A DNA stretch of 64,000 bases from a virus. The translations under genes and the position numbers were made by a program. This document shows positions 5,696 to 62,591 of the stretch, piece by piece; the first letter of the stretch is position 1; each line of letters opens with the position of its first letter. A model generated the notes under the pieces. It worked only from the letters and a program-made list of their open reading frames with translations. It had not been told where the DNA came from and ran no database searches. Location: the IMG/VR virus record IMGVR_UViG_3300047564_005910, positions 32,001-96,000 of that record, one strand, 5' to 3'.

Positions 5696-5698
5696 GGA

Positions 5699-8821: not shown

Positions 8822-8830
8822 GTTGTATTA

Positions 8831-8836
8831 TATTTA
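8831..8836 (-). promoter_or_regulatory. T4-like late promoter core TAAATA (one of a set)
   Basis: The same hexamer precedes late genes at 14655-14660, 21394-21399, 28888-28893, 34608-34613, 36409-36414, 37177-37182, 37765-37770, 40218-40223 and 43039-43044 (variant TAAGTA at 32062-32067). Confidence 0.7.
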
Positions 8837-8846
8837 TTTAAATTAT

Positions 8847-14645: not shown

Positions 14646-14657
14646 GCCTTAAGATAT

Positions 14658-24582: not shown

Positions 24583-24750
24583 ATGGAAATTATAGTCAAC
24601 ACCTTATATGGTACTTATATTGTACCAGCAAGTAAAGCAGATCAATTAGTAGCGTGGCTGCAACAAAACGCTGTGAAGCAAGGTCAGCAACCTATCGGTG
24701 AAATAAAACAAGACGGAAATTACTTAGGTAAACAGCTTATTAATGAATAA
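24583..24750 (+). CDS. Small hypothetical protein (55 aa, below ORF-track cutoff)
   Basis: MEIIVNTLYGTYIVPASKADQLVAWLQQNAVKQGQQPIGEIKQDGNYLGKQLINE*; fills the gap, has its own promoter and overlaps the dUTPase start. Confidence 0.7.
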   Translation: MEIIVNTLYGTYIVPASKADQLVAWLQQNAVKQGQQPIGEIKQDGNYLGKQLINE

Positions 24751-25246
24751 TTCATTTACAACATATACATCTCCACAATACGATCCTAAATCGTTAGATC
24801 TTAGTAGTTGGAAAATAAAGTTTTTAAAAACACATACAGACGCTATTTTACCAGAAAGAAAGCATGACGATACGTTTACCGGGGATAGCGGATACGACGT
24901 AACAGCGGTAGAAGATAAAATTATTCCTGCAAGAGGAGCAGCTATCGTCGAGGTTGGCCTAAAGTTAGCTTATGTTCCTCCTGGTTTGTGGATACGGGTA
25001 GAAAGTAGATCCGGGCTGCAATTTAAACACGGAATATCTGCTTTTAACGGTATTATTGATAACTCATATCGTGGGGATTGCGGTATTCGTTTAATAAACA
25101 ATAGCGACAAAGACTATGAAGTAAAAAAGGGTGACCGTATAGCTCAATTTGTAGTCTATACTTTAGTAGCTCCGCAAACAGACTGGGCAGAAGAAGTACA
25201 AGAAACTGTGCGCGGGGAAAAAGGTTTTGGAAGTAGCGGTCGTTGA
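24743..25246 (+). CDS. dut: Trimeric dUTPase
   Basis: All five motifs: SGYDV, SRSGL, GIIDNSYRG, GDRIAQ, RGEKGFGSSG. Confidence 0.95.
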   Translation: MNNSFTTYTSPQYDPKSLDLSSWKIKFLKTHTDAILPERKHDDTFTGDSGYDVTAVEDKIIPARGAAIVEVGLKLAYVPPGLWIRVESRSGLQFKHGISAFNGIIDNSYRGDCGIRLINNSDKDYEVKKGDRIAQFVVYTLVAPQTDWAEEVQETVRGEKGFGSSGR

Positions 25247-44504: not shown

Positions 44505-45158
44505 TTAGGCTTTTTTATCTTGTTGTGCAAATTCTACAAATTTATAAAACTCAGCACGAGATTGATCGCTTTTATCTAAAAACGCCCCTGACATTCTTGC
44601 AGTCCTCATAGTACTGTCATGCTTAATACCGCGATTCGAACAACAGGTATGATTAGCTTCTATTAATACAGCAACTCCTTTATTCTTTTCGCAGACTTGA
44701 TCAATATACTGATGAATCTGCATTGTAAGATTTTCTTGGACTTGAGGTCTACGTGAAAACCAATCAACGATACGGTTTAGTTTAGACAAACCAATAACCT
44801 TACCCGTCTTTGAAGGAATATAAGCAACGTGTGCTACCCCCATAAACGGTGCGTGGTGATGGGAGCACATCGATACTACCTTAATATTATTTTGACAGAC
44901 CATACCATCATAACCATCTACATTAGCAAAAGCTGTTACTTTGGGCGGAGCAGTATAACACCCCATCGCTAAATCTGTAACAAACGCCTTAGCTACACGA
45001 CGAGGCGTATCGGCACTATTCGGGTCATTACGCCAATCGAAGCCGAGAGCGTCTAAATATTGTTCGTATGCCTGAGCTCCCCTTGATATTAATTCTTCTG
45101 TTTCTTCTGGTGTATGAACTATATTATGATTAGCGTATTGTAGTTTTTTTCTAGACAT
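44505..45158 (-). CDS. folE: GTP cyclohydrolase I
   Basis: [42 protein letters not shown]. Confidence 0.95.
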
Positions 45159-49597: not shown

Positions 49598-50200
49598 TTA
49601 AAAATGAACAATATAATCTATAGAATTTTCTCTAATGAAATTTTCAAAATAATTCAAATTCCAAGGATTATTTTTTCTCATATGAAAGTGCCATTCTATC
49701 GCTAAATGCTTCATGTAATTAAACGTATTGTCTAATAGCATTTTATCTAAAACTTCGCACTCTGCTCCTTCAATATCCATCTTTACATGTATATCATCTT
49801 CTTGGCTAAAATTGTTTTTAACAAAAGTAGAAAAATCAATACATTTTGTTTCCATTTCAACTTTTGGTGGCCATTCAGCCATATGATCTTTTTCTATATA
49901 CGTGGGTATTAAAAAATTTTCATGTAAGATGTTACTAGCACCACCTACCCACTTTTTTTCATACTTACAGAATTCAACATTTAATGTTCTTGATTCATTT
50001 TTATCCCAAACAGCAACGTTATGAATTTTTATATTTGGGTGGGTGTATTTTTCCTTTAAAATATCAAAACTATTTTTATTGGGTTCAAACATGTGGACTT
50101 CAGTATCATCCAACTGAAGCCCCCAATGCTTGAAGTACAGTTCAAATCCTGAACCGATTTGCGATCCGCAATCTAAAAATACTTTTTTATTCTTCGTCAT
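49598..50200 (-). CDS. FkbM-family SAM-dependent methyltransferase
   Basis: FLDCGSQIG, HMFEPN, HNVAVWD, VKMDIEGAE, IEWH. Confidence 0.88.
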   Translation of the reverse strand: MTKNKKVFLDCGSQIGSGFELYFKHWGLQLDDTEVHMFEPNKNSFDILKEKYTHPNIKIHNVAVWDKNESRTLNVEFCKYEKKWVGGASNILHENFLIPTYIEKDHMAEWPPKVEMETKCIDFSTFVKNNFSQEDDIHVKMDIEGAECEVLDKMLLDNTFNYMKHLAIEWHFHMRKNNPWNLNYFENFIRENSIDYIVHF

Positions 50201-50573
50201 CGAAGAGTTTAACCACGTCTTGATCTGCAGGTGCTTGGCCCGGAACAGGTTGTTCAGGCTGAGGCTGGGAAGCTAAACTCATAATTTGCTCATATTGAGC
50301 AATAATTTTAAAATCCAGAACCGGGTCTTTAACAAGAGCGATGCTGTCCTTTGTAAAGGAAACGATTACATCATCTGCTTTATCTGCTAAAAACTCTTTG
50401 AAAAAGAGAGGTAGAATCTGAAGAGATAACTGACCTGTTTGAGGGTTTGGCTGTAAGTGAAGTACAGCTGGATCTTTTACGGTTAAGGTTTTGTCGTTTG
50501 ATTCGACTTCTTGACCGATAATTGTACGGCTAACTGAGTCGAAGAACGCTACGATTTTTTTGTTGTTACTCAT
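50187..50573 (-). CDS. Hypothetical protein, possible Sm-like fold
   Basis: Beta-rich pattern RTIIG..LTVKDPAVL..LPLF..FTKDSI..IIAQYEQ resembling Sm-like proteins of T4-like phages; own promoter TTGCAT-N15-TATAAT at 50585-50611. Confidence 0.55.
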   Translation of the reverse strand: MSNNKKIVAFFDSVSRTIIGQEVESNDKTLTVKDPAVLHLQPNPQTGQLSLQILPLFFKEFLADKADDVIVSFTKDSIALVKDPVLDFKIIAQYEQIMSLASQPQPEQPVPGQAPADQDVVKLFDDEE

Positions 50574-50611: not shown

Positions 50612-51559
50612 CTACTGACCCATAGCTTTTTTAGTGTAATATTTCGGGTTTACTAAAACAGGGGGTAGCATGTCAAAAGATGTAGCTCTACACGGATTAA
50701 TGTCTAATGAACCACGACGTGAGTATAGTAGAGTTACAGCACAAGAATCTACTTCAGGACATTTCATAATTTCTGTATAAAGCTTTTCAGCACAAAACTC
50801 GTGAAACTCGTTAACCTCTCTAAGAGAGACTACCTGTTTAAAAAGTGATTCAGGTTTAAGAACACAACCAAGGGTGTTAATTGAGATATAAGCGGCTCCT
50901 GTATCTTTTTGCTTTGTATGGCGGCAACGAGAGCGTAATGCATTAGTAAAGAATTTATTTGCATAAAGGGCTTTGTTTTCTTTTATACTATAACCAAAGC
51001 CCGAATAATTAACACTTTCAAATTCAAGATGATTTTTTTCTGCATTATAATCAGTAATTTCAATACTCTCAAGATCTTTATCTAAGAAAGATTGTAAATC
51101 AATATAACCTGTCATAGGGAAGATTTCATTAATCTCATCTCCTGACCTAAAAAACTTAACATCAACGGAAGTTTCTAAAGCTTTTTCGAGATCTGTCTTA
51201 ACTTGTAATTCGTAATTTTGAATAGCAGAATCAAGCGACTGGCCCATCTTACACATGTCAAAAGTATTAAGGTAAAGTTTAGCAGACTTCGATTCAACCA
51301 TATACTTAGAATCGGATGAATAGGTGTACTTTAAAGTACCAGCTATAGGTACACCGCTATTAAGAAGAAAAGTAGCTTCATGGCAGTGCCAAGTATCATA
51401 CCCAACAAATTCATCCCCTTTAATACCCCATCCATCTCGAGCGAGTTTACGGGGCATCGGGTTAAGAAGAGAGGGATCAAAACGGTCAGTGTAAACAGCA
51501 TAAGAGGCTGAAGACCCTAACGATTTTGAAGCGATATCGTTTAAGTTTGTTGTACTCAT
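50612..51559 (-). CDS. queF: NADPH-dependent preQ0 reductase, bimodular (YqcD-type) QueF
   Basis: QueF motif ESKSAKLYLN in the N-module; LRSRC....D catalytic Cys/Asp, NEFHEFC and YSRRGSLDINP in the C-module. Confidence 0.93.
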   Translation of the reverse strand: MSTTNLNDIASKSLGSSASYAVYTDRFDPSLLNPMPRKLARDGWGIKGDEFVGYDTWHCHEATFLLNSGVPIAGTLKYTYSSDSKYMVESKSAKLYLNTFDMCKMGQSLDSAIQNYELQVKTDLEKALETSVDVKFFRSGDEINEIFPMTGYIDLQSFLDKDLESIEITDYNAEKNHLEFESVNYSGFGYSIKENKALYANKFFTNALRSRCRHTKQKDTGAAYISINTLGCVLKPESLFKQVVSLREVNEFHEFCAEKLYTEIMKCPEVDSCAVTLLYSRRGSLDINPCRATSFDMLPPVLVNPKYYTKKAMGQ

Positions 51560-52104
51560 TGTTTTAAATATTTTTCTATTGTTTTCATTCTTTGCTCAAC
51601 AGAACCTTTAAGCCGAATGACTTTTTCTTTATTCTTCGGAGAAATTTTATACGTAATTAAATCTTCGAACAGAACAATTATATCATCTCTAAATTTAAAA
51701 TCCACAGAACGTTCTCCGTCATCGACTAATTTTACATCAGATGGATCTGTATAAAAAACGTAGTCTAACTTATCAAACAGTAAACTAAATACACTATTAA
51801 AAGCATGTAAAACATCTTCTTTTACCTTGCCTTGATTTACTTGATATTTTGTATAAACATAACCATCTAAAATACAACGATCAAGCATTAAATTTTCTTC
51901 CGGTTTAAGATGATTCTTAATATGTTCAGCTAAAATGTATAGTTGAGTTTCTGTACCGCCAATCTCATTAATCTTTACATCATACGTCCGGCGAACATAC
52001 CTCGTAACCTCATCAACAAACTTATAATCTTTATAAGTCTCTTTGCACTTATTTAGTAAGGTAGTTTTACCTGTACTCTGAGCACCTGTAAATGAAACTC
52101 TCAT
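51556..52104 (-). CDS. P-loop nucleoside/nucleotide kinase (AAA_28/NadR/thymidylate-kinase-like)
   Basis: N-terminal FTGAQSTGKTT, E-x-x-R, LDRCILD, DDGER lid, LKGSVEQR; promoter TTGATT-N15-TATAAT at 52111-52137. Confidence 0.8.
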   Translation of the reverse strand: MRVSFTGAQSTGKTTLLNKCKETYKDYKFVDEVTRYVRRTYDVKINEIGGTETQLYILAEHIKNHLKPEENLMLDRCILDGYVYTKYQVNQGKVKEDVLHAFNSVFSLLFDKLDYVFYTDPSDVKLVDDGERSVDFKFRDDIIVLFEDLITYKISPKNKEKVIRLKGSVEQRMKTIEKYLKQ

Positions 52105-52111
52105 ATCTTTA

Positions 52112-52648
52112 TTATAGTCTATATCTTAAAAAATCAACCCATAATTCAGAAGCAGCTTTATGAGTTTTAGTAAAAATTTCATCAAGAGTATTGTTTTTTA
52201 TATCAACAATATTTTGTGCTAGTATTGGCCCAGCATCTAATTCAGCAATACATTTGTGTATAGTGTTACCTGAGTATTTCAATTTTTCTTCAAAAGTACG
52301 AACTTGCGGGTCTTTACCCTTTAGGTGAGGGTACGTAACTAAAGGGGCTGGATGCAAATTATATATTTCGTACAAGTCACATATTTCAGGTGGTATGATA
52401 CGTAACCAACCGTGTAGTGTTACAAGAGATCTACTAGGTATAACATTTTTATATTCTTCTACTGTTGGTTTTTTTGGTAGCCAAATAAACTTGTCATGAA
52501 ATTCATCAAATAATTCGGGTTTAATTTCTAAAAATTTATCTTTAGTTTTATTTGTAATAATAAAATCAGGTACCCGGTTAAGAGTTTTTATTAAATTAAA
52601 GATTTCAGAACCTGTTTGACTAAACAGTGTTACCCAAGGTCTTTTCAT
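52112..52648 (-). CDS. PurN-like 10-formyl-THF-dependent formyltransferase (candidate preQ1 formyltransferase, DpdN-like)
   Basis: FSQTGSE, HGWLRII, YNLHPA (catalytic N-x-H), GNTIH...ELDAGPI (catalytic D). Confidence 0.85.
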   Translation of the reverse strand: MKRPWVTLFSQTGSEIFNLIKTLNRVPDFIITNKTKDKFLEIKPELFDEFHDKFIWLPKKPTVEEYKNVIPSRSLVTLHGWLRIIPPEICDLYEIYNLHPAPLVTYPHLKGKDPQVRTFEEKLKYSGNTIHKCIAELDAGPILAQNIVDIKNNTLDEIFTKTHKAASELWVDFLRYRL

Positions 52649-53475
52649 TTACAGAGATTTCTAAACTGCGTAATATTCCAAAAAGAGTCGTATACTTGCT
52701 GACTTGTTAGATTAGCATCAATAAAATCAACAAGTTTTACTGACCATTTTTCTGAAAGACCGGGACCCGGTTCATATCTTTTACCAAGAATGCCCGCAAC
52801 AATTGGATTTGAAGTATCAATAGTTTCAATATACTCACTCAAGTAATTATCAGAATATAGAGAAAATTCCCAAGGCAAAGATGCTCCGAGTAGATGATGT
52901 GGTTTGTCAACATCTAAAACGTCATTATCGTAAAGATCGTCAAGAAGCTTTACCCGGCCAATAGCATATTTAAACCATTTATTATCTTCATGGGACTTGA
53001 CAAATCCCGGTACATTAATTTGTGACCAGTCACAGTTATCTAGGTAATAAGAATAATCAAACGAAATAGCAATTTTATCAACCTTTGGTGCTACAAAACG
53101 ATAACAGTCAACAATATCCTGATAGGTCTTACCCTGTACAACACCAATTTTACGTCCAGGTAGATCAGAATACTTTGTTAGGAAGTTATCCATTGACATA
53201 CAAGTACCGGCTGTATCCTCTAAAACATCAGGGATAACATACTCGAAGGGTTTAAGTTCTTTGACCCAATACGCAAACTGATCCGGATCAAAAGAGGTTC
53301 CTAGCTCAAAAATAGAGTTATCTAATAGAACTCTGCGACCGTAATCTACGGATCTGAAATAAAATTCTTTGTACGCCTGATTCTCAGGCAATAAATGCAC
53401 CAAGCAATAATCATAGTCATTATAACCCCAAGAGTATGGAAGCAACGATACGGGTGTTTCGTGTGAGATTTTCAT
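52645..53475 (-). CDS. dpdA: Divergent TGT-fold base-exchange enzyme (DpdA/DpdA3-like 7-deazaguanine transglycosylase)
   Basis: TGT-barrel-like motifs in the expected order: LLDNSIFELG, IPDV, GVVQG, HHLLG, IDTSNP; coupled to formyltransferase and QueF. Confidence 0.7.
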   Translation of the reverse strand: MKISHETPVSLLPYSWGYNDYDYCLVHLLPENQAYKEFYFRSVDYGRRVLLDNSIFELGTSFDPDQFAYWVKELKPFEYVIPDVLEDTAGTCMSMDNFLTKYSDLPGRKIGVVQGKTYQDIVDCYRFVAPKVDKIAISFDYSYYLDNCDWSQINVPGFVKSHEDNKWFKYAIGRVKLLDDLYDNDVLDVDKPHHLLGASLPWEFSLYSDNYLSEYIETIDTSNPIVAGILGKRYEPGPGLSEKWSVKLVDFIDANLTSQQVYDSFWNITQFRNLCK

Positions 53476-53482
53476 AGAAGAA

Positions 53483-53510
53483 ATTATATACTAATTACAA
53501 AGTAAATCAA
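53483..53510 (-). promoter_or_regulatory. Promoter TTGATT-N16-TATAAT, 7 nt before the TGT-like ATG
   Basis: Read on the reverse strand; overlaps the 3' end of the polymerase gene. Confidence 0.7.
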
Positions 53511-56040
53511 ATAAATCTGTTTGTACTTCTTTACCAATAATAGGTAATCTCCAGCCAATAGCGTCATAAACTTGTTCAATAGGAGGAGCTACAATTTTAT
53601 TAAACATTTTATCGTAATCAATTTTAACATCTAAACTAAACTCTTTCGGGTATTGATTTACAAAACCAATAGCGTCAAGGCCGTATGGGTTTTTTGCGGC
53701 ATAAAAGTATTTGATCTTTTGACCTGAATTGATACGTTCATACTTTGTTTCAAGGTTATATTTTTCTAATAAGAGGTTATATGCAATTGCTGCTTTAACA
53801 TGGCATGGTGTTGCTAAATTGAATTTTGCTAAAGAGGCGCCACCAGACCATTTGTCGTATTCTTTAACAGCTTTTCGAAACGCTGCATCTTCTACTTTAA
53901 GTGTTTTAAACAGTTCATAAGCTTCTCTGTATACCTCGTTTGTCTTCTTTACATCTTTAGTTAAGAACGCTGTATTAATAGTTTTTTTAATTAACTCTTT
54001 AACTTGTTTAGGTGTTGTTGAACGTGCTAACTCAACACCAACATATTTAAATTTACTCGTAGGTACACCTTCTTCGTCTAGAATGTGAAGTATGTATCGT
54101 TTCTTCTGTAAAAAAGAACCGACATCAGCTATGGCTTCTCGCTTAAATTCAAATCGCGGATCAGCAGAGTTTAACTCTTTACGAGCCCAAGAAAGAATTT
54201 CTGTATTTAAATGTCTGCCAAGAGCATCAACTATTTTATGAGACTCGGAAGTAATGGCGTCATCTTTTACAAGCGGTAGTTTAAGTTTATTAAGGATAGG
54301 TTGTATAGTTGTGTATAGGGAGTCGGTGTCCCCAGATAAAATAAGAGATTCATCGACATTAAATTTTTCTTTAGCCCATGCGTCAATAATAGCCCCTCCT
54401 GCTTTAGCAACAGCTTGACCGGTTAACGTGATTGAAGACGCGTTATCAATATCCATAAACGCCGAATGTTTGTTTGCAAACGTTCCGTAAATAGAGTTAA
54501 GGAGAATCTTTAACGTGTACTGTAGAGTATCAAAGTATTGTATTTGGGAAATTGTTTTTGGATCTTTTTGTTTTGTTTTTTTAAGCTCGATCATTTTTTG
54601 ACGAGCATAGACTCGCTCATCATAAATGCTATTAATCAGGTTAGGACAAACACCTTTGTATTTTTGAGAGTATAAAACACCTGCTTTAGACAAAGAGACA
54701 TTTTCTTCGGTTAGAAATTTTTTAAGTTTCTTGGTGTTTATTGTAAAAATATTACCATTAACAAGACGTATATCGAGATCTTCATCTCCGTCAACATTAC
54801 CTGTAACTATTTTACCTAGTTTAGTTTCTGGTGAAATATTAAGAGTTATGATTGTGTTAGGGTACAGAGAGTTAACGTCAAAACTTACAATAGCTTCTTT
54901 AAGACCTCGTTCAGGCTCCCTTACATAACCACCTTCAAGAGACTCTCTAATAGTATCGTTTTTAAACGTTGGTATGACGTAGCCTTGTTTGTCAGCCTGT
55001 AAAGTCATAGCTCCAGTAACAATAGATACCTTACCGAGAGCTCTTTCGAAATTTGTACAACCTTTATAAGACAATAGACGAATAATTTTAAGGTAGTTAA
55101 GTTTTTCTTCTAATTTACGAAGCAGATCAACGTCCTGGATGTTATAGTCAACAAAATTTTCCCAGTCAGTGTCAGCTAAAGAGGATAAGTTTGTAGCATT
55201 AATAGCAAGCTTACCTTCCCCTAATTCGTATTCAGCAATATAATTTAACGAAAATGATTCTCGGTCACCTTTTGAATAGGTTTTGTAAATCTCCATGTAG
55301 TCTAAACAACTAACACCTGAAATATACCAACGACCTACATCTTTACCAAACTTAGCAAAATTTTCTCTATACTGCATTTCACCGATTGGTGATAATTGTT
55401 TTATAAAATCTTCTCCGAGCAGGTTTCTAGCACGGTTAATAATATAAGGAATATCGAACTGCTCAGTATTCCACCCTGTTAAAATATCTGGAGGATCTTT
55501 TTTCCAGAACTTAACAAAGTTATCAAAAAGTTCTTGTTCTGTTTTACATAATATGTATGTAACATTATCGAGTTTAGGTTTATAGTCGTGCTTTAACCCC
55601 CAGGTGGTTATCTGGTTTGTCAGGGTATCATATACCGTAATAAGTACTACAGGGTCCTTAGCTTTATGAGGTACAGGGAACTCATTAGGAGAGTACGTTT
55701 CAATATCGATAAAATAAACTTTTAGTGGAAACTTACTAAACTCTTCTTTATGAACGTCGTCTTTAAACGTTTCAACCAAGAATTGCTGATCGACAGGCAG
55801 ATTGCCAAATAACCTTTTAGTACTTGTTTCGTTTACGTACTTGTTTCGTTCAAAACTATTTTTAAAAAAATGTCTTTTTAGTGGTGTTTTAAAGATCGAG
55901 ACAGCGTCTTTTGATTTTTCACTCTCTGTATAAAGAAACGGTGTAAACGGAACCTCAGTATCAATTCTATCGCCGTCAGAAGTCCACGTTCTTAGATATA
56001 CAGTTCCTTCTCGTGGCCTATAAGTTGCGTTCCTAAACAC
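53491..56040 (-). CDS. gp43: Family B DNA polymerase
   Basis: Exo DIET, GWN..FDIPY, YNIQD; Pol SFDVNSLYP, KILLNSIYG, GDTDS, KKRY; GTG start. Confidence 0.97.
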   Translation of the reverse strand: MFRNATYRPREGTVYLRTWTSDGDRIDTEVPFTPFLYTESEKSKDAVSIFKTPLKRHFFKNSFERNKYVNETSTKRLFGNLPVDQQFLVETFKDDVHKEEFSKFPLKVYFIDIETYSPNEFPVPHKAKDPVVLITVYDTLTNQITTWGLKHDYKPKLDNVTYILCKTEQELFDNFVKFWKKDPPDILTGWNTEQFDIPYIINRARNLLGEDFIKQLSPIGEMQYRENFAKFGKDVGRWYISGVSCLDYMEIYKTYSKGDRESFSLNYIAEYELGEGKLAINATNLSSLADTDWENFVDYNIQDVDLLRKLEEKLNYLKIIRLLSYKGCTNFERALGKVSIVTGAMTLQADKQGYVIPTFKNDTIRESLEGGYVREPERGLKEAIVSFDVNSLYPNTIITLNISPETKLGKIVTGNVDGDEDLDIRLVNGNIFTINTKKLKKFLTEENVSLSKAGVLYSQKYKGVCPNLINSIYDERVYARQKMIELKKTKQKDPKTISQIQYFDTLQYTLKILLNSIYGTFANKHSAFMDIDNASSITLTGQAVAKAGGAIIDAWAKEKFNVDESLILSGDTDSLYTTIQPILNKLKLPLVKDDAITSESHKIVDALGRHLNTEILSWARKELNSADPRFEFKREAIADVGSFLQKKRYILHILDEEGVPTSKFKYVGVELARSTTPKQVKELIKKTINTAFLTKDVKKTNEVYREAYELFKTLKVEDAAFRKAVKEYDKWSGGASLAKFNLATPCHVKAAIAYNLLLEKYNLETKYERINSGQKIKYFYAAKNPYGLDAIGFVNQYPKEFSLDVKIDYDKMFNKIVAPPIEQVYDAIGWRLPIIGKEVQTDLFDLLCN

Positions 56041-56046
56041 AAATTA

Positions 56047-56074
56047 AGTATAGCTTAAAACGAAAATATATCAA
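56047..56074 (-). promoter_or_regulatory. Promoter TTGATA-N16-TATACT, 6 nt before polymerase GTG
   Basis: The -35 box contains the TGA stop of the upstream glycosyltransferase. Confidence 0.7.
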
Positions 56075-57312
56075 TTAACTTGTTTAATATATTTTCGTTC
56101 CGAAGAACCATAAGGCGTGAAATAAGCTTCATGGTGTTTCATAATGTTTTTTTCATCCTCTAGCCAGAAATCTTCTGCGTATTCTCGGGACCTCTTACAA
56201 AGGTCAGCATACGTATGTTGATTTTTTGTTGCCGTCTTTATACAGTCAATAAATTCTGAACCGTTAGAGTATTTTAATATAGCGTCTTTATATGTGACCA
56301 TATCGGGACATACACACGGTATACCGAGAGCTGCAGCTTCAAGTAATTTAATATTACTCTTTGCTTTGTTGAAGTTATTATCTTGTAATGCTGCAAACGT
56401 CAATTGTGTTCCTGATTCAGCCATAGCAAGAGGGTAATCCGGAAGTTCAACCCATGGATGGAATGTTATTTCACCTGAATCAATAAAAGGTTTAAGCGGT
56501 AACGGGTAGCAGCCATAAAACTGCCACTTAAAATCTTTGCGTGCCTTTATTATGTGCTGTACTACTCCCGCAAAGTCATCGTTTTGATTAACTCTGTTTG
56601 TTACATCGACGTGAGTACCGGACGCAAAAATTGTTACAACTGGTTTCTTTTTATTCTTTTCAAACTTTTTAACCAAGTCTCCTAGGTTGTAGTATCTGTC
56701 AAACCACCATTTTAATAGATAGTTAGGTATGGTAGTAATATTTTTGTTACCGGTTTTTTCGATATAATAATCCCGCATGAAATCACAAGTTACTGTCATT
56801 TCATCCATCATGCTAATAATCTCTAAAATACTATCTCTAATTTCGTTTTGTACGAAAGCATCTTTATTACGATTAAAATCAGGTATGTCTTCTCTAAAGA
56901 CGATATCATCAACTTCATAGATGAGTTTGAATTTCATTTCTTCAGATAATTTTTTAAGTTGCTTAACAAATTCTTTTTGCATCGGGGTAGCCTGACGCTG
57001 TATTTTAATAGCTTTTACCCCCATATAAAAGCGAGGATCAAGAACCATGGTTGTTAATTCAGTTAAAACAGCCTTTTGGTACAGGTTTAACATTAAATTA
57101 GGGGACATACACCTGTACCAGCTACAGCCTCCGTAATCAGCTAAATAATTTATAGCTCTAGGTAAATTCGCACCTGGTATCTCAGGTGGTGGCAAAGTAG
57201 GCATATTAGGTGGCTGTATTGCAAAATTCTGCGCCCCGGGTATACCTGGCGGTAAGCCAGCAGGAGCTCCGGGTATATTGTAAATGGCCGAATGGATTGG
57301 TGCAAAATTCAT
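56071..57312 (-). CDS. GT-B fold glycosyltransferase with Pro-rich N-terminus
   Basis: GGCSWYR, IYEVDD, TVTCDFM, TIPNY, DNNFNKAKSNIKLLEAAALGIPCV (GT4-like donor-binding motif). Confidence 0.8.
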   Translation of the reverse strand: MNFAPIHSAIYNIPGAPAGLPPGIPGAQNFAIQPPNMPTLPPPEIPGANLPRAINYLADYGGCSWYRCMSPNLMLNLYQKAVLTELTTMVLDPRFYMGVKAIKIQRQATPMQKEFVKQLKKLSEEMKFKLIYEVDDIVFREDIPDFNRNKDAFVQNEIRDSILEIISMMDEMTVTCDFMRDYYIEKTGNKNITTIPNYLLKWWFDRYYNLGDLVKKFEKNKKKPVVTIFASGTHVDVTNRVNQNDDFAGVVQHIIKARKDFKWQFYGCYPLPLKPFIDSGEITFHPWVELPDYPLAMAESGTQLTFAALQDNNFNKAKSNIKLLEAAALGIPCVCPDMVTYKDAILKYSNGSEFIDCIKTATKNQHTYADLCKRSREYAEDFWLEDEKNIMKHHEAYFTPYGSSERKYIKQVN

Positions 57313-57350
57313 ACTTTTATTTTAATATATAAGTTATTTTTTTGATTATA

Positions 57351-59153
57351 TCAACCGTTGTTTTCTAAGAATGTGAATCCGTTTTTCTTTACAAGGAATA
57401 AGAAGTTATTAACTCTAGTTGTAATAGCAGAACCTCTATGTGTTATTATATAACAGTTTTCGTGATACTTATCAAAACGTTCCTGTAGTATTTCTAAAAC
57501 TAACTCTACTCCCTTATCATCTAAAGATGAATCTAATAGCTCGTCATAAAATACGGTATTAAAATGTATATCGCCTTGCATGCGGCGTATATCCAAAAAT
57601 GCAAATAAACACGCCAAATCAATCCGTTTTCTTTCGCCTCCAGAAAAGTTAAAGTATGATTTTTCAGTATTATTTTCGTCAGTTATTTTTTCTTCAAAGT
57701 ATTCATTAAATTGACAAATACAGTTTGTATGTAAAGCTTGCAAATAATGTACTAATCTCGCATTAAGAACCTTTAATACTTTTTTAACGATATACGATTT
57801 AACACCCTCTTCAGATACAACAAACTTTACACACTCTAAAACAGATATTTCTTTATTAAGACGGTTAACGGTGTCTTGTAAAACAGTTATTTCTTTTTCT
57901 TGATCTTGTACAATTTTTTCTAATGATGTATTCGTTTCTTTTTTAATTTTTTCTTGTTCATTTTTAAAATTAGTTATTTGTTCAGTAATATATTCTATTT
58001 TGGACGTGTATAGCTTATTGCTATTTTTAATTTCTTGTACTTTTTCTTTTTTGGTTTTTATTTCGTTAAATTCGTCTTTTGTTTTAGTTTGTTGTTCTTT
58101 TATATTGTTGATATCGTTTTGAAGGTTGTTTTCTTTATCTGTTAAATCGGTAAACTTTGCTGTTAGTTCATTCCGTCTATCTTCTTTGTGTTTTTTATGG
58201 TCAGTAGTGTACTCTCTTTGACACGTCGGGCACGCAGAACCTTGCTTTTCAAGTTCTTCAATTTGCTGTAGACAGATTTTTTTCTCGGTACGTATCCCGC
58301 TAATTTTTTCTAAGTGGTTATTATAAATTTCTTGTACATTGTGAATACTATTTTCAATCTTTTTAATTTTTTCTTGTATTAGAGTTTCTAAATCTTGAGG
58401 TATAATTTGTATTTGTTTTTTAAAAGTATCAATGTTGTTTGTATGTTCGACTATTTTATCTTGTATGTCGATAACTCGTTTGTTTTTATTTTCTTCAAAA
58501 AGGTCTAACTGCTCTTTGTTCTGTTTATAACTCTTTTCAACGCTTTCCTTTTTTGTATATGTGACCTCGTAATCTTTTTTAAGATCGTTTAGCTCGTCTC
58601 GAGCTCTTAATAACATATCCGAAAAAACCTCTAGATTTAAAACACTTTCAATAAATTTTCTTTTATCAACTTTACTTTGCGCCATGAAGGGCACAGTGTT
58701 ATTGATTGTCATTACAACTGAGTTTTGAAAAACTTTTGGTGTTGATCGAATTATCTTTTGTATAAATTCGTTCGTTTTAGGAAGGGTAGATCTAGTTACA
58801 TCAATATCGTCCTTAAAGATAGTGCATTTTGTAGGTTGTAAAGATCTTGTTATATAGTATTTTGTCTTTGTATTACTATTTTGTATAAAAAACTCTAAAG
58901 TAACTACACAGTTCTTTTGATTAACAGAGTTAATAATTTGATCTTTTGTAAGCTCTCTTATTGTAGATCCGAAGAAGGCAAAATGTAATGCGTCGACTAC
59001 TGTAGATTTACCAACCCCGTTTTTAGAGTCTTCTTTATCGTAGTTAATGCCTGTAATGCCATTTATACCAGCATTAAAAGTAATGGTTAATGGTGTTTCC
59101 CCAACTGATAAAAAGTTTTGTACAGTAAGTTTGTTTAATACAATTAATTGCAC
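57351..59153 (-). CDS. gp46: Rad50/SbcC-like recombination ATPase
   Basis: QNFLSVG, NGVGKST, CPTC zinc hook, FSGGE, DELLDSSLD, ITH; promoter TTGATA-N16-TAAAAT (59160-59187) 6 nt before GTG. Confidence 0.95.
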   Translation of the reverse strand: MQLIVLNKLTVQNFLSVGETPLTITFNAGINGITGINYDKEDSKNGVGKSTVVDALHFAFFGSTIRELTKDQIINSVNQKNCVVTLEFFIQNSNTKTKYYITRSLQPTKCTIFKDDIDVTRSTLPKTNEFIQKIIRSTPKVFQNSVVMTINNTVPFMAQSKVDKRKFIESVLNLEVFSDMLLRARDELNDLKKDYEVTYTKKESVEKSYKQNKEQLDLFEENKNKRVIDIQDKIVEHTNNIDTFKKQIQIIPQDLETLIQEKIKKIENSIHNVQEIYNNHLEKISGIRTEKKICLQQIEELEKQGSACPTCQREYTTDHKKHKEDRRNELTAKFTDLTDKENNLQNDINNIKEQQTKTKDEFNEIKTKKEKVQEIKNSNKLYTSKIEYITEQITNFKNEQEKIKKETNTSLEKIVQDQEKEITVLQDTVNRLNKEISVLECVKFVVSEEGVKSYIVKKVLKVLNARLVHYLQALHTNCICQFNEYFEEKITDENNTEKSYFNFSGGERKRIDLACLFAFLDIRRMQGDIHFNTVFYDELLDSSLDDKGVELVLEILQERFDKYHENCYIITHRGSAITTRVNNFLFLVKKNGFTFLENNG

Positions 59154-59194
59154 AGACTTATTTTAAAATAAAAAACAAAATTATCAAGAAAGTT

Positions 59195-60226
59195 TTAATT
59201 AAAGAGCTTTTTTGTCCAAGTTTTTGGAGTGTTCTCTGTTTGTATTTCTATTGGAAGATGATAGTTAAAGCAACGTACTGGTTGGGTTTTTATCCATTCT
59301 ACTGTTTCTTTAATAGTATCATCGCAGCTGTAAAGTGTTTTGTAATTTAGGATCCCGCTCGCTTTCTGAGTGTCAACCCATGCGTATTTTACTTCTCTCG
59401 GTCTATCAGGCATGTGTTGTATTTTTGGCTCCATATTACAAGCAGCACCTACTTTATGAGCGAGGTCTAAAATAGTAATTTCAGTGCCATCGCTAGGGCC
59501 GATATTAAAAACTTCTTTGCTATTAATAGTATCACGTTTTTCGTATAGAGATACGAACGCGTCAATGCAGTCACTTACGTGAGAAAAACTTCTCTTTTGT
59601 AAGCCGTCCCCATAAACATAAACAGTTTTATTATTTAAAATAAGGTTAGTAAATATGCTCATAACATTTCTAAAAGGATCCGAATAGCATTGATTCGGGC
59701 CAGCGACGTTATGAGGAACCATATGATATACCTTTATTCCATAAATATCGCTCATTAAGTTTAGGTGTTGTTCAGCATGAAGTTTTGCTAGACCGTACGG
59801 GTCAATAGGCTGTGGTGTTGAATCTTCTACGAATGGTGTAGGTAGATTACCGTATCTAGCCATACTGCTTGTATTTATAAACATTGGTGCACCGCTTGCT
59901 ATAGCAGCACTACATATGTTAACTGTGCCTGCGTAAATATTTTCACATATTGTTTTAGGGCTAAAAACACTTAACCCTTCATGAGCAAGTGCAGCACAAT
60001 GTATAACTAGATCAGCTTTTATTTCTTTAAAATGTTCAGCTATCGCTTGAGTATTTAAAATATCGGCCTGTATAAAAGTAAAATTAGTTACGTTAGGTAA
60101 ATTCGAATAATAACCACCTATTAAATTGTCAATCCCGTAAACTTTCCAACCTAAAGATAAAAATTTATATGCCAAATGACTACCTATAAGACCGGCTACT
60201 CCTGTTATTATTACTTTCTTTTGCAT
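59195..60226 (-). CDS. NAD-dependent nucleotide-sugar epimerase/dehydratase
   Basis: ITGVAGLIGSH, HCAA, SSMARYG, PYGLAK (YxxxK), GDGLQKRSFSHVSD. Confidence 0.92.
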   Translation of the reverse strand: MQKKVIITGVAGLIGSHLAYKFLSLGWKVYGIDNLIGGYYSNLPNVTNFTFIQADILNTQAIAEHFKEIKADLVIHCAALAHEGLSVFSPKTICENIYAGTVNICSAAIASGAPMFINTSSMARYGNLPTPFVEDSTPQPIDPYGLAKLHAEQHLNLMSDIYGIKVYHMVPHNVAGPNQCYSDPFRNVMSIFTNLILNNKTVYVYGDGLQKRSFSHVSDCIDAFVSLYEKRDTINSKEVFNIGPSDGTEITILDLAHKVGAACNMEPKIQHMPDRPREVKYAWVDTQKASGILNYKTLYSCDDTIKETVEWIKTQPVRCFNYHLPIEIQTENTPKTWTKKLFN

Positions 60227-60232
60227 TTTTTT

Positions 60233-60967
60233 TTATTTATACCCTTTAATAATAGTTCTACCGTGTAAGAGACTTGAACTTGCTTCCCCGCAATTAGGCT
60301 TACCTGCTGCTACATTTAAAATAGAATTGTCCCACTTTTTCCACGATTCTTTAATCTCGGGCTTATCCCCCCAAATAAAAAGGTCCCAGTGAGGATAACT
60401 CTCTTCAGGTATATTGCGGATTACCCATTTCGGGTGATGTCCGTCCCATTTTTTAAGCCAATGTGGCGTTGAAAGTATAGCACCAGGTTTATTAAGAGGT
60501 GATTTCCAGTCTTGATCGTAATCTGCTTCGTGACTTTCGTATATAGCCAAGTCAGCCTCTCTTAAGCGCCACACCCACTCTCTATCTTCCCAACCACCAT
60601 GTACGTATCTTTCATCCCACCAACCAATATTACGAATTAGTTCTTTAGAAAAAGCAGAAAAACCAATGCCGTACAAACACGTCCAAGCAAAGCCAGACTC
60701 TAAATGTTTTATCATTTTTTTAATCTCATTGGGTTTAGGGTGAGCACGATCATTAATAAAAAAGATCCATTCTGTCGGGGATGTTGCTACAGAGTGATTT
60801 AACATTAACGAATATGACTCATACATAAACGGATACCGGTCGATACGGTTATTCCAATGTACTTTATATTCTTGTTCTAGTGGTTTAAGCGCTTCAATTT
60901 GTTTATTAACAACGTCCCTGCTACAGCCACAGTGTAGACAAATTGTAAATTCTGTTATTTTAAACAT
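60233..60967 (-). CDS. GT-A (GT2-like) glycosyltransferase
   Basis: FFIND, IGWWDERYVHGGWED. Confidence 0.75.
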   Translation of the reverse strand: MFKITEFTICLHCGCSRDVVNKQIEALKPLEQEYKVHWNNRIDRYPFMYESYSLMLNHSVATSPTEWIFFINDRAHPKPNEIKKMIKHLESGFAWTCLYGIGFSAFSKELIRNIGWWDERYVHGGWEDREWVWRLREADLAIYESHEADYDQDWKSPLNKPGAILSTPHWLKKWDGHHPKWVIRNIPEESYPHWDLFIWGDKPEIKESWKKWDNSILNVAAGKPNCGEASSSLLHGRTIIKGYK

Positions 60968-60968
60968 A

Positions 60969-61781
60969 TTAAATCGCTGGGTAACGTTTTGTATATTCGT
61001 CGACTAACCACGGCTGACCACCAGCGAAGTGTCTATATATTACATTATCAGGATTTGCACGCGAAATGTCGTATAGTGCTGGCTTACCAGTTGTCTTATC
61101 CCCGGTTTCTTCGTAAAGATGTGTAACGTTCCATTCCGTAGGAAGTACCTCAACATGTTCAAGTAGTTCATCTAAAGAAAAGATAGTGTGTTCTGTTACT
61201 TGAGAATGTAACCCGTTGTTTGGCAGTTCATAAAATGATTGCCAACTATGTGGTTTAATACCGGCGTTAATATAATAAGCTTGTTGATCTCCGTGGTAAA
61301 ATGTACATTCTTGATTATAATGTTCGTTCCAGAGTTTAAAATCTTTACATTTGTAAAATCTTTCTTTTGAGATTAAGAGATCAACAAGGTTACGAGACCA
61401 TTCATCAATTTTAAGAATAAAAAAGCCAAAGCAGTGGGTATTACCTGAATCAATTGCGTAAGTAAAGCTTTTTGTCGGTGTGTGAATTTTATCCATTTGA
61501 CAAATAAACGTGTCAGCGTCAAACTGATAAACCATATCCCCGTCTTGAAGTTTACCTGATGTAAGTAATTTTTTAAAGATATGCCATCTGTTAAAATGAA
61601 AATTGTCACCAGGCCCTAATTCCGGAAAATAAATTTGAGGAGTAAAATCATTCTTAGTAATTTCGACATATTTTAGCCCGTGAATTTCGCAATATCTCTT
61701 ATTACGTGGGGAAATATATTGTTGGAACAATTTTTCTTTCTCGCCGCTATATATAGCTAATGTAACAAAATACTTTTTCAT
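60969..61781 (-). CDS. GT-A glycosyltransferase, GT34/GT8-like
   Basis: RYCEIHGLKY, FDADTFI (DxD), DQQA, LPTEWN, HFAGG; promoter TTGCAA-N17-TAAACT (61788-61816) 6 nt before ATG. Confidence 0.75.
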   Translation of the reverse strand: MKKYFVTLAIYSGEKEKLFQQYISPRNKRYCEIHGLKYVEITKNDFTPQIYFPELGPGDNFHFNRWHIFKKLLTSGKLQDGDMVYQFDADTFICQMDKIHTPTKSFTYAIDSGNTHCFGFFILKIDEWSRNLVDLLISKERFYKCKDFKLWNEHYNQECTFYHGDQQAYYINAGIKPHSWQSFYELPNNGLHSQVTEHTIFSLDELLEHVEVLPTEWNVTHLYEETGDKTTGKPALYDISRANPDNVIYRHFAGGQPWLVDEYTKRYPAI

Positions 61782-61799
61782 TAAGATAGTTTATTGTGT

Positions 61800-62591
61800 T
61801 TATAGACTTTTTGCAAGATCTAGTATTGTATCTTTATAGTAATTAAAATCGCATACTGTAGTATCTTTTTGAATTGTTTTTTCGTATTTTGATTCTAATA
61901 ATTCCTGGGTTATGTCAGACCATTTATCTATAAACAGTATCGGGCTATTCTTAAACGTATGTAACGGCACACTTTTTAAGCAAATAGGAATTGTACCTAC
62001 ATACATAGACTCCCATATACGGTGACAATCGACGCTATTACCTGGTGGTGAAATTACATATTTGTATGTACTAAGTTTTCTCAAGTAGGTCTCAAAATCT
62101 AGTTTCTCTTTTTCAAAATCAATAAAAGGTATTTCTTTTAATTTTTGTAATGCTAAAAATCTAGCATTATGATTTGTGTTTATATCAAAATTACAGTAAC
62201 AAAAATTTTTCTTATCATTTTTTTCTTTAATAATTTTTATAACAGTGTCTTTATTACCGTGAGGCCAGACTTCATTAGCCATTCCTATTGGTATAGGGAA
62301 TAATTTTTTATGTATGGTATGACAGTTCATGCCAAACCACATAACAAGATTTTCGTTATTAAGAATAGAAAGATATTGATTAGTTACAGGGGCGTCGGCA
62401 TCGTGTGTTATTAGAATAAACTTGTAATTAATTTGTGGTAACACCCTCGCCATAAAGACAGGTATGTTATCTGAGTGTAAAAAGAAGATTTTATTTTCTG
62501 GTTTTAGTTCGAGTTTAATCCTGTTTCGTGCAATATAGTTGTTTGCTAAGTCTAAAAAACGGTCAGGGGTTATAATAAAACTGTTTGTCAT
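61800..62591 (-). CDS. Exostosin (GT47)-like glycosyltransferase
   Basis: ILITHDAD, PIPIG, YKYVISPPGNSVDCHRIWESMYVGTIPI. Confidence 0.75.
   Translation of the reverse strand: MTNSFIITPDRFLDLANNYIARNRIKLELKPENKIFFLHSDNIPVFMARVLPQINYKFILITHDADAPVTNQYLSILNNENLVMWFGMNCHTIHKKLFPIPIGMANEVWPHGNKDTVIKIIKEKNDKKNFCYCNFDINTNHNARFLALQKLKEIPFIDFEKEKLDFETYLRKLSTYKYVISPPGNSVDCHRIWESMYVGTIPICLKSVPLHTFKNSPILFIDKWSDITQELLESKYEKTIQKDTTVCDFNYYKDTILDLAKSL

What the first reader, a model, noticed from the sequence alone, without database searches (positions are those of the whole stretch)
51556..53475. A nucleotide kinase inside the module points to a pre-replicative route to a non-canonical dGTP
Seen: a P-loop NMP-kinase-like gene sits between the formyltransferase and queF and is coupled to queF. 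The TGT-like protein is short (276 aa), acidic, and lacks the CxCxxC zinc site and any obvious DNA-binding extension. The formyltransferase keeps a PurN-like phosphate-binding loop (FSQTGS). Established: canonical DpdA acts on DNA after replication and needs no kinase, while full base replacement (hmC, hmU, Z) works through modified dNMP, kinase and polymerase. Inference: dGMP + preQ1 > dPreQ1MP (transglycosylase) > formyl-dPreQ1MP > di/triphosphate (kinase) > incorporation by the adjacent PolB. The first step would also drain dGMP. I know of no biochemical demonstration of such a pathway; this is the strongest candidate for a new system here.
Basis: inference. Interest (0 to 1): 0.88.

Follow-up and report, generated by a model that had tools for sequence, protein, structure and literature searches.

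The report
Kinase wired to phage DpdA3 module
An uncultured T4-like phage carries the known gene set that replaces every G in its DNA with a formylated 7-deazaguanine. The small nucleoside/nucleotide kinase inside that set turns out to travel with the base-swapping enzyme DpdA3 in nearly every phage checked, which suggests, but does not prove, that the modified G is built as a free nucleotide before DNA is copied.

Summary
On the minus strand the order is PolB, a 276-aa TGT-fold DpdA3, a 178-aa PurN-like formyltransferase (DpdN), a 182-aa P-loop kinase and a bimodular QueF, with 4-nt overlaps or gaps of 7-15 nt. The module is not new. [quoted passage not shown]

The kinase linkage holds up:
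- 56 of 58 DpdA3-seeded viral loci have this kinase within 2.5 kb.
- 53 of 56 loci seeded from distant kinases have DpdA3 within 3 kb.
- Campylobacter phages CP220 and CC_R7 keep the pair, and phiST has a different P-loop kinase-like gene beside its DpdA3.
- 9g-type DpdA occurs in other phage groups than the kinase; only Escherichia appears in both lists.
- DpdN::kinase and DpdA3::DpdN fusions exist.

The kinase fold is closest to nucleoside kinases (NadR-RNK, dGK), with thymidylate kinases close behind. A pre-replicative route is the best reading (about 45%) but stays inference. This scan has noted the same idea on other DNA.

The parts
52645..53475 (-). DpdA3-type 7-deazaguanine transglycosylase (276 aa): a minimal TGT TIM barrel without the zinc subdomain
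   Evidence: PHROG 19058 at 1e-48. 45% identical to the immuto_2-6A 'DNA guanine transglycosylase' and 41% to the CP220 homologue. Model pLDDT 94. Foldseek top hits are Z. mobilis and human TGT, probability 1.0. Invariant D52, D83, Q114, H194-L-L-G and D220 in 39 homologues.
52112..52648 (-). DpdN, a PurN-like formyltransferase (178 aa)
   Evidence: Pfam Formyl_trans_N 4e-13. 47% identical to immuto DpdN. Invariant N97, H99, D138 and S10/G13/E15 of the FSQTGSE loop. The family profile matches GAR transformylases best and over nearly its full length, E 6e-15.
51556..52104 (-). AAA_28 P-loop nucleoside/nucleotide kinase (182 aa), the conserved partner of DpdA3
   Evidence: Pfam AAA_28 8e-15; PHROG 2107. 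Model pLDDT 92.7. VIA-align: NadR-RNK Z 18.4/18.2, human dGK 17.3, dNK 16.2, TMPKs about 15. Invariant GxxxxGKT, R35, Q54, D75-R76, D80, Y84, D129-G-x-R132, R172. Linkage statistics.
50612..51559 (-). Bimodular QueF (preQ0 to preQ1 reductase), translationally coupled to the kinase
   Evidence: Pfam QueF_N 1.5e-21 plus QueF 3.4e-9. It overlaps the kinase stop by 4 nt.
53491..56040 (-). Family B DNA polymerase (T4 gp43-like), 15 nt upstream of DpdA3
   Evidence: Pfam DNA_pol_B and exonuclease domain; PHROG 262 at 6e-199.
44505..45158 (-). GTP cyclohydrolase I (FolE), first step of the 7-deazaguanine pathway
   Evidence: Pfam GTP_cyclohydroI 1.7e-49.
50187..50573 (-). Conserved 128-aa ORF of unknown function between the module and uvsX. 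Probably a backbone gene of these T4-like phages rather than a module part.
   Evidence: No Pfam or PHROG hit. Homologues lie in front of uvsX in many related loci, including ones without QueF or DpdN.

Best explanation
The stretch is the core of a DpdA3-type system for full replacement of guanine by 7-(formylamino)methyl-7-deazaguanine (fdPreQ1). FolE, plus QueD and QueE elsewhere in the genome, build the 7-deazaguanine base, and QueF reduces preQ0 to preQ1.

Proposed mechanism (inferred): DpdA3 swaps guanine for the deazapurine on a free 2'-deoxyguanosine nucleoside or nucleotide, not on finished DNA. The PurN-like DpdN formylates the aminomethyl group of the 5'-phosphorylated product. The AAA_28 kinase supplies the phosphorylation step that host kinases are unlikely to do on the modified compound, either dN to dNMP or dNMP to dNDP. 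Host Ndk and the phage polymerase then put the modified dNTP into DNA.

Shown here: the identities and folds of the four enzymes, their intact catalytic motifs, and the near-obligate DpdA3-kinase linkage. Inferred: the substrate of DpdA3, the acceptor of the kinase and the order of steps.
For: 1. Linkage. 56/58 DpdA3-seeded and 53/56 distant-kinase-seeded viral loci keep the two genes within 2.5-3 kb, in three architectures: with DpdN and QueF, with QueF only, or with neither. The pair is also adjacent in immuto, CP220, CC_R7 and MAG-binned contigs. In a 99%-complete 211-kb genome where they are apart, both are still encoded.
2. phiST has a different P-loop kinase-like gene (AAA_18) directly beside its DpdA3. 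This looks like replacement of a kinase by an unrelated one.
3. Kinase hits in 50,697 phage records are limited to DpdA3 phages plus weak hits (E 7e-4) in T4-like coliphages. The 233 records with 9g-type DpdA belong to other groups. DpdA3 phages show 100% replacement and the other DpdA types at most 30% (PMC10516641).
4. The kinase has a small-molecule nucleoside/nucleotide kinase fold over its whole length, with conserved acceptor-site type residues. Paralogues lie next to dUTPase or are fused to a dUTPase domain.
5. Fusions DpdN::kinase (L167; P0342 and P0350) and DpdA3::DpdN (L203).
6. DpdN is closest to PurN, whose substrate is a ribose-5-phosphate carrying a primary amine, and the phosphate-loop region aligns.
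7. From the literature: DpdA3 alone failed to work in E. coli, and free dADG nucleoside was reported in CP220-infected cells (PMC10516641).
8. The own genome carries a second AAA_28 paralogue right after QueD-QueE.
Against: - Every TGT or DpdA enzyme characterised so far acts on a polynucleotide. None is known to act on a mononucleotide.
- The published proposal for DpdA3 is post-replicative (PMC10516641), and a 2025 paper still treats deazaguanine as a nucleic-acid-level modification (PMC12783734).
- Bacterial DpdA needs an ATPase, DpdB, to modify DNA (PMC10164549), so a P-loop neighbour could be an accessory ATPase.
- No dGTP-removing enzyme (HD, MazG, PRA-PH) is in the 112-kb record, which is only 53% complete. 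MazG-like genes are rare near DpdA3 in the sampled loci.
- The HD-kinase gene next to CP220 DpdA3 resembles the polynucleotide kinase Pnkp1.
- Distant members of the kinase family occur in RB69-like phages without DpdA3.
- The sampled loci are partly related to each other, so the counts overstate the number of independent cases.
Confidence: 0.45

Rival explanations
1. Post-replicative model, as published. The phage polymerase makes ordinary G-containing DNA and DpdA3 exchanges every G in the polymer. The P-loop protein is an ATP-using accessory factor, functionally like DpdB, that helps DpdA3 reach or turn over on DNA. DpdN formylates preQ1 as the free base or in DNA.
For: All tested TGT/DpdA enzymes use polynucleotides, and bacterial DpdA strictly needs the ATPase DpdB (PMC10164549). 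The authors of the DpdA3 paper propose post-replicative insertion. The DNA-acting 9g DpdA is as acidic and zinc-site-free as DpdA3, so nothing in the DpdA3 sequence excludes DNA. No dGTP-exclusion enzyme was found here. The failure of DpdA3 alone in E. coli also fits a missing partner.
Against: The neighbour has a complete nucleoside/nucleotide kinase fold, with NadR-RNK, dGK and TMPK as nearest structures, and is unrelated to the ParB-like DpdB. Family members occur next to or fused with dUTPase, and in phages without DpdA3, which suits nucleotide metabolism better than a dedicated DNA-handling partner. Phage DpdA1/2 enzymes work on DNA without such a protein.
Confidence: 0.33
2. The kinase is a general phage (deoxy)nucleotide or nucleoside salvage kinase, in the manner of T4 gp1 or a dNK. 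It sits in the nucleotide-metabolism and replication region by descent and has no specific tie to DpdA3 chemistry.
For: Homologues annotated 'thymidylate kinase' lie upstream of uvsX in RB69-like coliphages lacking DpdA3 and next to topoisomerase and dUTPase in Campylobacter phages. Paralogues not adjacent to DpdA3 exist in G000, G001 and G002.
Against: Adjacency persists across unrelated backbones: PolB-type T4-like phages, FolE-led modules, the PolA-type immuto phage and Campylobacter phages. It also persists when DpdN and QueF come and go. Among cultured phages, all strong hits are in DpdA3 phages. Fusions with DpdN exist.
Confidence: 0.12
3. The kinase is a NadR-type ribosylnicotinamide kinase that supports NAD(P) supply, for QueF's NADPH demand or against NAD-depleting host defences.
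For: Pfam AAA_28 and the best structural match are the NadR-RNK domain. Some sources name homologues 'nicotinamide riboside kinase'. A weak cytidylyltransferase-like (NMNAT-fold) ORF lies upstream of the second paralogue.
Against: The kinase stays with DpdA3 in loci and phages that lack QueF (L022, L024, L027, L028, CP220). R76 of the DR motif and R35 are invariant here but not matched in the NadR alignment. No NMNAT gene is adjacent to the module kinase.
Confidence: 0.05

Closest known systems
[quoted passage not shown]
   Same: Same genes in the same order: DpdA3, DpdN, the 'thymidylate kinase' gp203 and QueF, with FolE nearby. Identities are 45% (DpdA3), 47% (DpdN) and 32% (kinase). In that phage 100% of G is fdPreQ1.
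   Different: The backbone differs: a T4-like phage with PolB directly upstream here, against PolA downstream in immuto. The MazG-like pyrophosphatase and the small PRTase of immuto were not found in the held 112 kb. An extra FkbM-type methyltransferase lies downstream here. The published description never mentions the kinase and proposes post-replicative insertion.
DpdA3 loci of Campylobacter Firehammerviruses (CP220, dADG) and Cellulophaga phage phiST (dDG)
   Same: A TGT-fold DpdA3 without the zinc subdomain sits directly next to a P-loop kinase-like gene. Complete G replacement is reported.
   Different: These loci have no DpdN or QueF and insert other bases. The phiST P-loop gene belongs to another family (AAA_18). 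CP220 adds an HD plus Pnkp1-like kinase fusion.
T4 hydroxymethylcytosine pathway: gp56 dCTPase, gp42 dCMP hydroxymethylase, gp1 dNMP kinase
   Same: This is the proposed working analogy: modify a mononucleotide, re-phosphorylate it with a phage kinase, then incorporate it with the phage polymerase. The module lies in the same genome slot as T4 genes 42 and beta-gt, between gene 43 and uvsX.
   Different: The base is exchanged rather than derivatised. No counterpart of the canonical-dNTP-destroying gp56 was found. Nothing here has been shown biochemically.
Bacterial DpdA/DpdB preQ0-DNA system (PMC10164549)
   Same: A TGT-family base exchange that needs a second, ATP-using protein.
   Different: DpdB is a ParB-like ATPase, whereas the protein here has a nucleoside/nucleotide kinase fold. 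The bacterial system modifies under 0.1% of G at specific sites.

Membership tests
DpdA3 subfamily of TGT-like transglycosylases | TGT-type TIM-barrel fold | tested here: met
   Model pLDDT 94. Foldseek top 50 hits are all tRNA-guanine transglycosylases, probability 1.0, TM 0.58-0.64.
DpdA3 subfamily of TGT-like transglycosylases | Sequence relationship to the DpdA3 proteins of phages with proven modification (immuto, CP220, phiST) | tested here: met
   tblastn: 45% identity (4e-54) to immuto, 41% (6e-44) to CP220, 23% (7e-4) to phiST. The family HMM also finds the phiST protein.
DpdA3 subfamily of TGT-like transglycosylases | Conserved catalytic aspartates and substrate-pocket motifs of TGT | tested here: inconclusive
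   D52, D83, Q114, HLLG194-197 and D220 are invariant in 39 homologues. Their equivalence to TGT D102, D156, Q203 and D280 rests on motif resemblance recalled from the TGT literature, not on a residue-level superposition.
DpdA3 subfamily of TGT-like transglycosylases | Acts on DNA (the substrate assumed in the literature) | not testable with these tools
Published attempts in E. coli failed.
DpdN (preQ1/dPreQ1 formyltransferase, PurN superfamily) | PurN-like fold with the N-x-H...D catalytic set, encoded together with DpdA3 and QueF | tested here: met
   N97, H99 and D138 are invariant. Best PDB matches are GAR transformylases, E 6e-15, covering positions 8-169. 47% identical to immuto DpdN. 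Synteny.
AAA_28 / NadR-RNK-like P-loop kinases | Walker A motif, DR-type motif, LID with DDGxR, and a full kinase fold | tested here: met
   Pfam AAA_28 at 55.9 bits against a cut-off of 27. Invariant residues. NadR Z 18.4, rmsd 2.4 over 167 residues.
dNMP / thymidylate kinases (the 'NMP kinase' of the finding) | A phosphate-bearing acceptor, that is NMP to NDP activity | tested here: inconclusive
   TMPKs score Z 14-15, below nucleoside kinases at Z 16-18, but the margins are small. The DRxxxDxxxY spacing and R35 align with the TMPK motifs DR(Y/F) and REP, while Q54 aligns with the base-binding Gln of dNKs.
Pre-replicative base-replacement systems (T4 hmC, Z-genome type) | An enzyme that removes the canonical dNTP (here dGTP) | tested here: not met
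   No HD, MazG or PRA-PH domain in the 112-kb record; only a dUTPase homologue. The record is about 53% complete, so absence is not proven.
Pre-replicative base-replacement systems (T4 hmC, Z-genome type) | The modifying enzyme works on a mononucleotide and the product is re-phosphorylated by a dedicated kinase | not testable with these tools
   Only the genetic linkage of DpdA3 with a kinase could be shown.
Bimodular QueF | QueF_N plus QueF domains in one chain | tested here: met

The most novel reading that the evidence does not exclude
DpdA3 is the first TGT-fold enzyme that exchanges the base on a free deoxyguanosine nucleoside or nucleotide. Together with one or two dedicated AAA_28 kinases, and DpdN acting on the 5'-phosphate form, it makes a modified dGTP that the phage polymerase incorporates. 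Complete 7-deazaguanine genomes would then be built pre-replicatively, contrary to the published model.
Probability: 0.45. Interest if true: 0.85.

Novelty: new member of a known kind. Interest (0 to 1): 0.62.

Why it matters
How some phages reach 100% replacement of G by a 7-deazaguanine is unsettled. The only published proposal, base exchange on finished DNA, has no biochemical support for DpdA3. A kinase that almost always accompanies DpdA3, was not detected in the phage groups with partially modifying DpdA enzymes, and is sometimes fused to the formyltransferase gives a concrete, cheap experiment: DpdA3 plus kinase on dG, dGMP or dGTP against DNA.

If the nucleotide route is right, it adds a new enzymatic way to make 7-substituted 7-deaza-dGTPs. 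It would also change how such phage genomes are predicted from sequence. If it is wrong, the kinase is still an unrecognised component whose role in a DNA-level reaction needs explaining.

Tried and rejected
- **DNA-level relatives.** No phage record matches the region at the DNA level beyond a short PolB stretch.
- **DpdA3 by sequence against PDB.** The profile found nothing, so the fold search was needed.
- **DpdA3::kinase fusion.** This was a lead from earlier scan notes. The 'longer' homologue search gave only DpdA3::QueF fusions, and P0330 (kinase plus 280 aa) is not DpdA3. A 456-aa fusion would fall in the unlisted part of the 'near' search, so this is not evidence of absence.
- **Contexts of the kinase fusions.** Relatives of the kinase-GNAT and kinase-dUTPase fusions were not found in viral contigs, so those two remain unverified protein predictions.
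- **NTP hydrolase plus DpdA3 plus kinase as a general triad.** Rejected. MazG-like genes are near DpdA3 in phiST, immuto and only two of the sampled contigs (L145 among the viral loci, L202 among the MAG contigs). The CP220 HD-kinase looks like the polynucleotide kinase Pnkp1. The ORF between FolE and DpdA3 in one lineage is not MazG-like. The 125-aa ORF after FolE in the window has no family.
- **Charge and zinc-site argument.** Rejected as a discriminator.
- **Kinase tree.** Only the quick tree finished. It separates two clades of non-adjacent paralogues, but the deep branches are unresolved.
- **Crippen et al. 2019.** The paper is not held. Its results are cited only through PMC10516641.
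- **Complex prediction.** Not used, because a DpdA3-kinase interface would not separate the two main models.
Full report
**What is there.** The window is part of a 112-kb IMG/VR virus record, about 53% complete. The phage is T4-like: it has gp32, UvsX, a DnaB/gp41-type helicase, a family B polymerase, a clamp, a large terminase and a tail sheath. On the minus strand the genes run in this order:
- PolB, 53491-56040
- a 276-aa protein, 52645-53475
- a 178-aa formyltransferase, 52112-52648
- a 182-aa P-loop protein, 51556-52104
- a bimodular QueF, 50612-51559
- a 128-aa ORF, an FkbM-type methyltransferase, UvsX and the helicase

The four central genes are packed with 4-nt overlaps or a 7-nt gap.

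**Identity of the parts.**
- The 276-aa protein has no Pfam hit. It belongs to PHROG 19058 and is 45% and 41% identical to the DpdA3 proteins of Flavobacterium phage immuto_2-6A and Campylobacter phage CP220. Its model (pLDDT 94) matches tRNA-guanine transglycosylases. Five acidic or polar motifs are invariant in 39 homologues, and there is no CxCxxC.
- The formyltransferase is the DpdN family. N97, H99 and D138 are invariant, and the family profile matches PurN best and over almost its full length. The FSQTGSE loop aligns with the SG(N/T)GSN loop of PurN. That this PurN loop binds the GAR phosphate is taken from the PurN literature, not tested here.
- The P-loop protein is Pfam AAA_28. Its model (pLDDT 92.7) is nearest to the NadR ribosylnicotinamide-kinase domain (Z 18.4 and 18.2), human deoxyguanosine kinase (17.3), dNK (16.2) and dAK (15.9). 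Thymidylate kinases follow at about 15, and Foldseek puts dCK and dNK first. It is therefore a small-molecule nucleoside/nucleotide kinase by fold. Whether its acceptor is a nucleoside or a monophosphate cannot be read from homology, because it combines TMPK-like features (DR motif spacing, R35) with a dNK-like one (Q54).

**It is a known system.** Phage immuto_2-6A has the same order: DpdA3, a small ORF, DpdN, a 'thymidylate kinase' and QueF. [quoted passage not shown] The word 'kinase' does not occur in that paper. They also report that DpdA3 could not be made to work in E. coli, and that free dADG nucleoside had been seen in CP220-infected cells. A December 2025 paper still gives deazaguanine as the example of a nucleic-acid-level modification. 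I found no paper in the held library that proposes or tests a nucleotide-level route.

**The kinase-DpdA3 linkage.**
- Among 80 viral contigs found with the DpdA3 profile, 58 have at least 2.5 kb downstream of DpdA3. Of these, 56 carry the kinase within 2.5 kb, and one more has it 7 kb away.
- Starting instead from distant kinase representatives (29-39% identity to the seed), 53 of 56 loci with enough upstream sequence have DpdA3 within 3 kb.
- The pair persists whether DpdN and QueF are both present, only QueF is present, or neither is. It is also adjacent in CP220, in CC_R7 with a very divergent DpdA3 and in contigs binned into MAGs.
- A 99%-complete 211-kb phage with DpdA3 next to ThyX still has two such kinases elsewhere. 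A 93-kb contig has the kinase about 30 kb away.
- phiST lacks this family but has an AAA_18 P-loop kinase-like gene touching its DpdA3.
- In 50,697 phage records, strong kinase hits occur only in Campylobacter and Flavobacterium DpdA3 phages, with weak hits (E 7e-4) in T4-like coliphages. The 233 records carrying a 9g-type DpdA belong to other groups.
- Fusions at the DNA level join DpdN to the kinase (L167) and DpdA3 to DpdN (L203). Predicted proteins join DpdA3 to QueF and the kinase to DpdN, GNAT or dUTPase domains.
- The loci are not all independent, so these numbers describe breadth rather than a formal statistic.

**What this does and does not show.** That test is not met for the DpdA3-linked clade. 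The family does have distant members in RB69-like phages without DpdA3, and paralogues next to dUTPase or elsewhere in the genome. These relatives argue that the protein is a nucleotide-metabolism kinase rather than a DNA-handling ATPase, and that one clade has been recruited to DpdA3.

The DNA-acting DpdA of phage 9g is also acidic (pI 5.6) and lacks CxCxxC. No dGTP-destroying enzyme is present in the held 112 kb, and MazG-like genes accompany DpdA3 in only a few loci. The HD-kinase next to CP220 DpdA3 resembles the polynucleotide kinase Pnkp1 and is probably unrelated. PolB adjacency is lineage-specific.

**Most likely mechanism.** I rate a pre-replicative route at about 45%. In it, DpdA3 exchanges guanine for preQ1 on free dG or dGMP, DpdN formylates the 5'-phosphorylated product in a PurN-like reaction, and the AAA_28 kinase or kinases restore the phosphates.

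The main rival, at about 33%, keeps the published DNA-level exchange and makes the P-loop protein an ATP-using helper, by analogy with DpdB. A generic salvage kinase (12%) and a NadR-type NR kinase (5%) are less likely for the reasons given under rivals.

**Context.** The module occupies the slot between the polymerase gene and uvsX. In T4 that slot holds gene 42 (dCMP hydroxymethylase) and beta-glucosyltransferase. The parallel is neat but says nothing about timing, because that slot holds both a pre-replicative and a post-replicative enzyme.

**Verdict.** The locus is a new member of the known DpdA3/DpdN fdPreQ1 system. The kinase is a real, conserved and so far unremarked component. The pre-replicative reading is well motivated and directly testable but remains inference. 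This scan has recorded the same idea on many other genomes. I used those notes only as leads.

Noticed in passing
G000:C1:108191-108820 (L205:7192-7821), outside the window: A second AAA_28 kinase paralogue lies directly after QueD (L205:5788-6234) and a QueE-like radical-SAM gene (6431-7189). A weak cytidylyltransferase-like ORF (4802-5428) lies upstream and a 477-aa ORF with no family downstream. This paralogue forms a separate, well supported clade with non-adjacent paralogues of two other large DpdA3-related phage records.
   Followed up: partly
window 49598-50200 (-): An FkbM-family methyltransferase is inserted between the 128-aa ORF and uvsX. No homologue appeared in any of the roughly 180 related loci screened with the same seed set, so it is specific to this phage. 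Whether it touches the DNA base is unknown.
   Followed up: partly
window 56071-62591 (-): A run of sugar-handling genes lies just upstream of PolB and a Rad50/SMC-like gene: a GT1-like glycosyltransferase (56071-57312), an NAD-dependent epimerase/dehydratase (59195-60226) and a GT47/RXYLT1-like protein (61800-62591). The target could be DNA, the virion or the host surface.
   Followed up: no
L167:7437-8534; L203:5971-7359; proteins P0391, P0392, P0326, P0365, P0341: Natural fusions within the module: DpdN::kinase, DpdA3::DpdN and DpdA3::QueF. There are also kinase::GNAT-acetyltransferase fusions, which hint at an acetylated preQ1 derivative not yet described, and a kinase::dUTPase-domain fusion.
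   Followed up: partly
L001:6840-7235 and about 20 other loci (for example L035, L052, L059, L086, L124-L126, L198, L202): A short (about 130-170 aa) phosphoribosyltransferase-domain protein recurs near DpdA3 modules. It could recycle the released guanine or make a deazapurine ribonucleotide. No homologue was seen in the held part of this genome.
   Followed up: partly
L034:9552-10001, L036, L037, L041, L046, L048, L068, L076: In one lineage a conserved ORF of about 145 aa (WYANSEGRYG...VDVKSN) always sits between FolE and DpdA3. It is not MazG-like and its function is unknown.
   Followed up: no
window 24743-25246 (+): A dUTPase-family gene (Pfam 1.6e-27) lies far from the module. It is the only dNTP pyrophosphatase-type gene found in the record.
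   Followed up: no
window 2-19052 (-): Four very large consecutive ORFs (1898 aa running off the window, then 1040, 1932 and 1464 aa), presumably tail-fibre or other structural proteins. Not examined.
   Followed up: no
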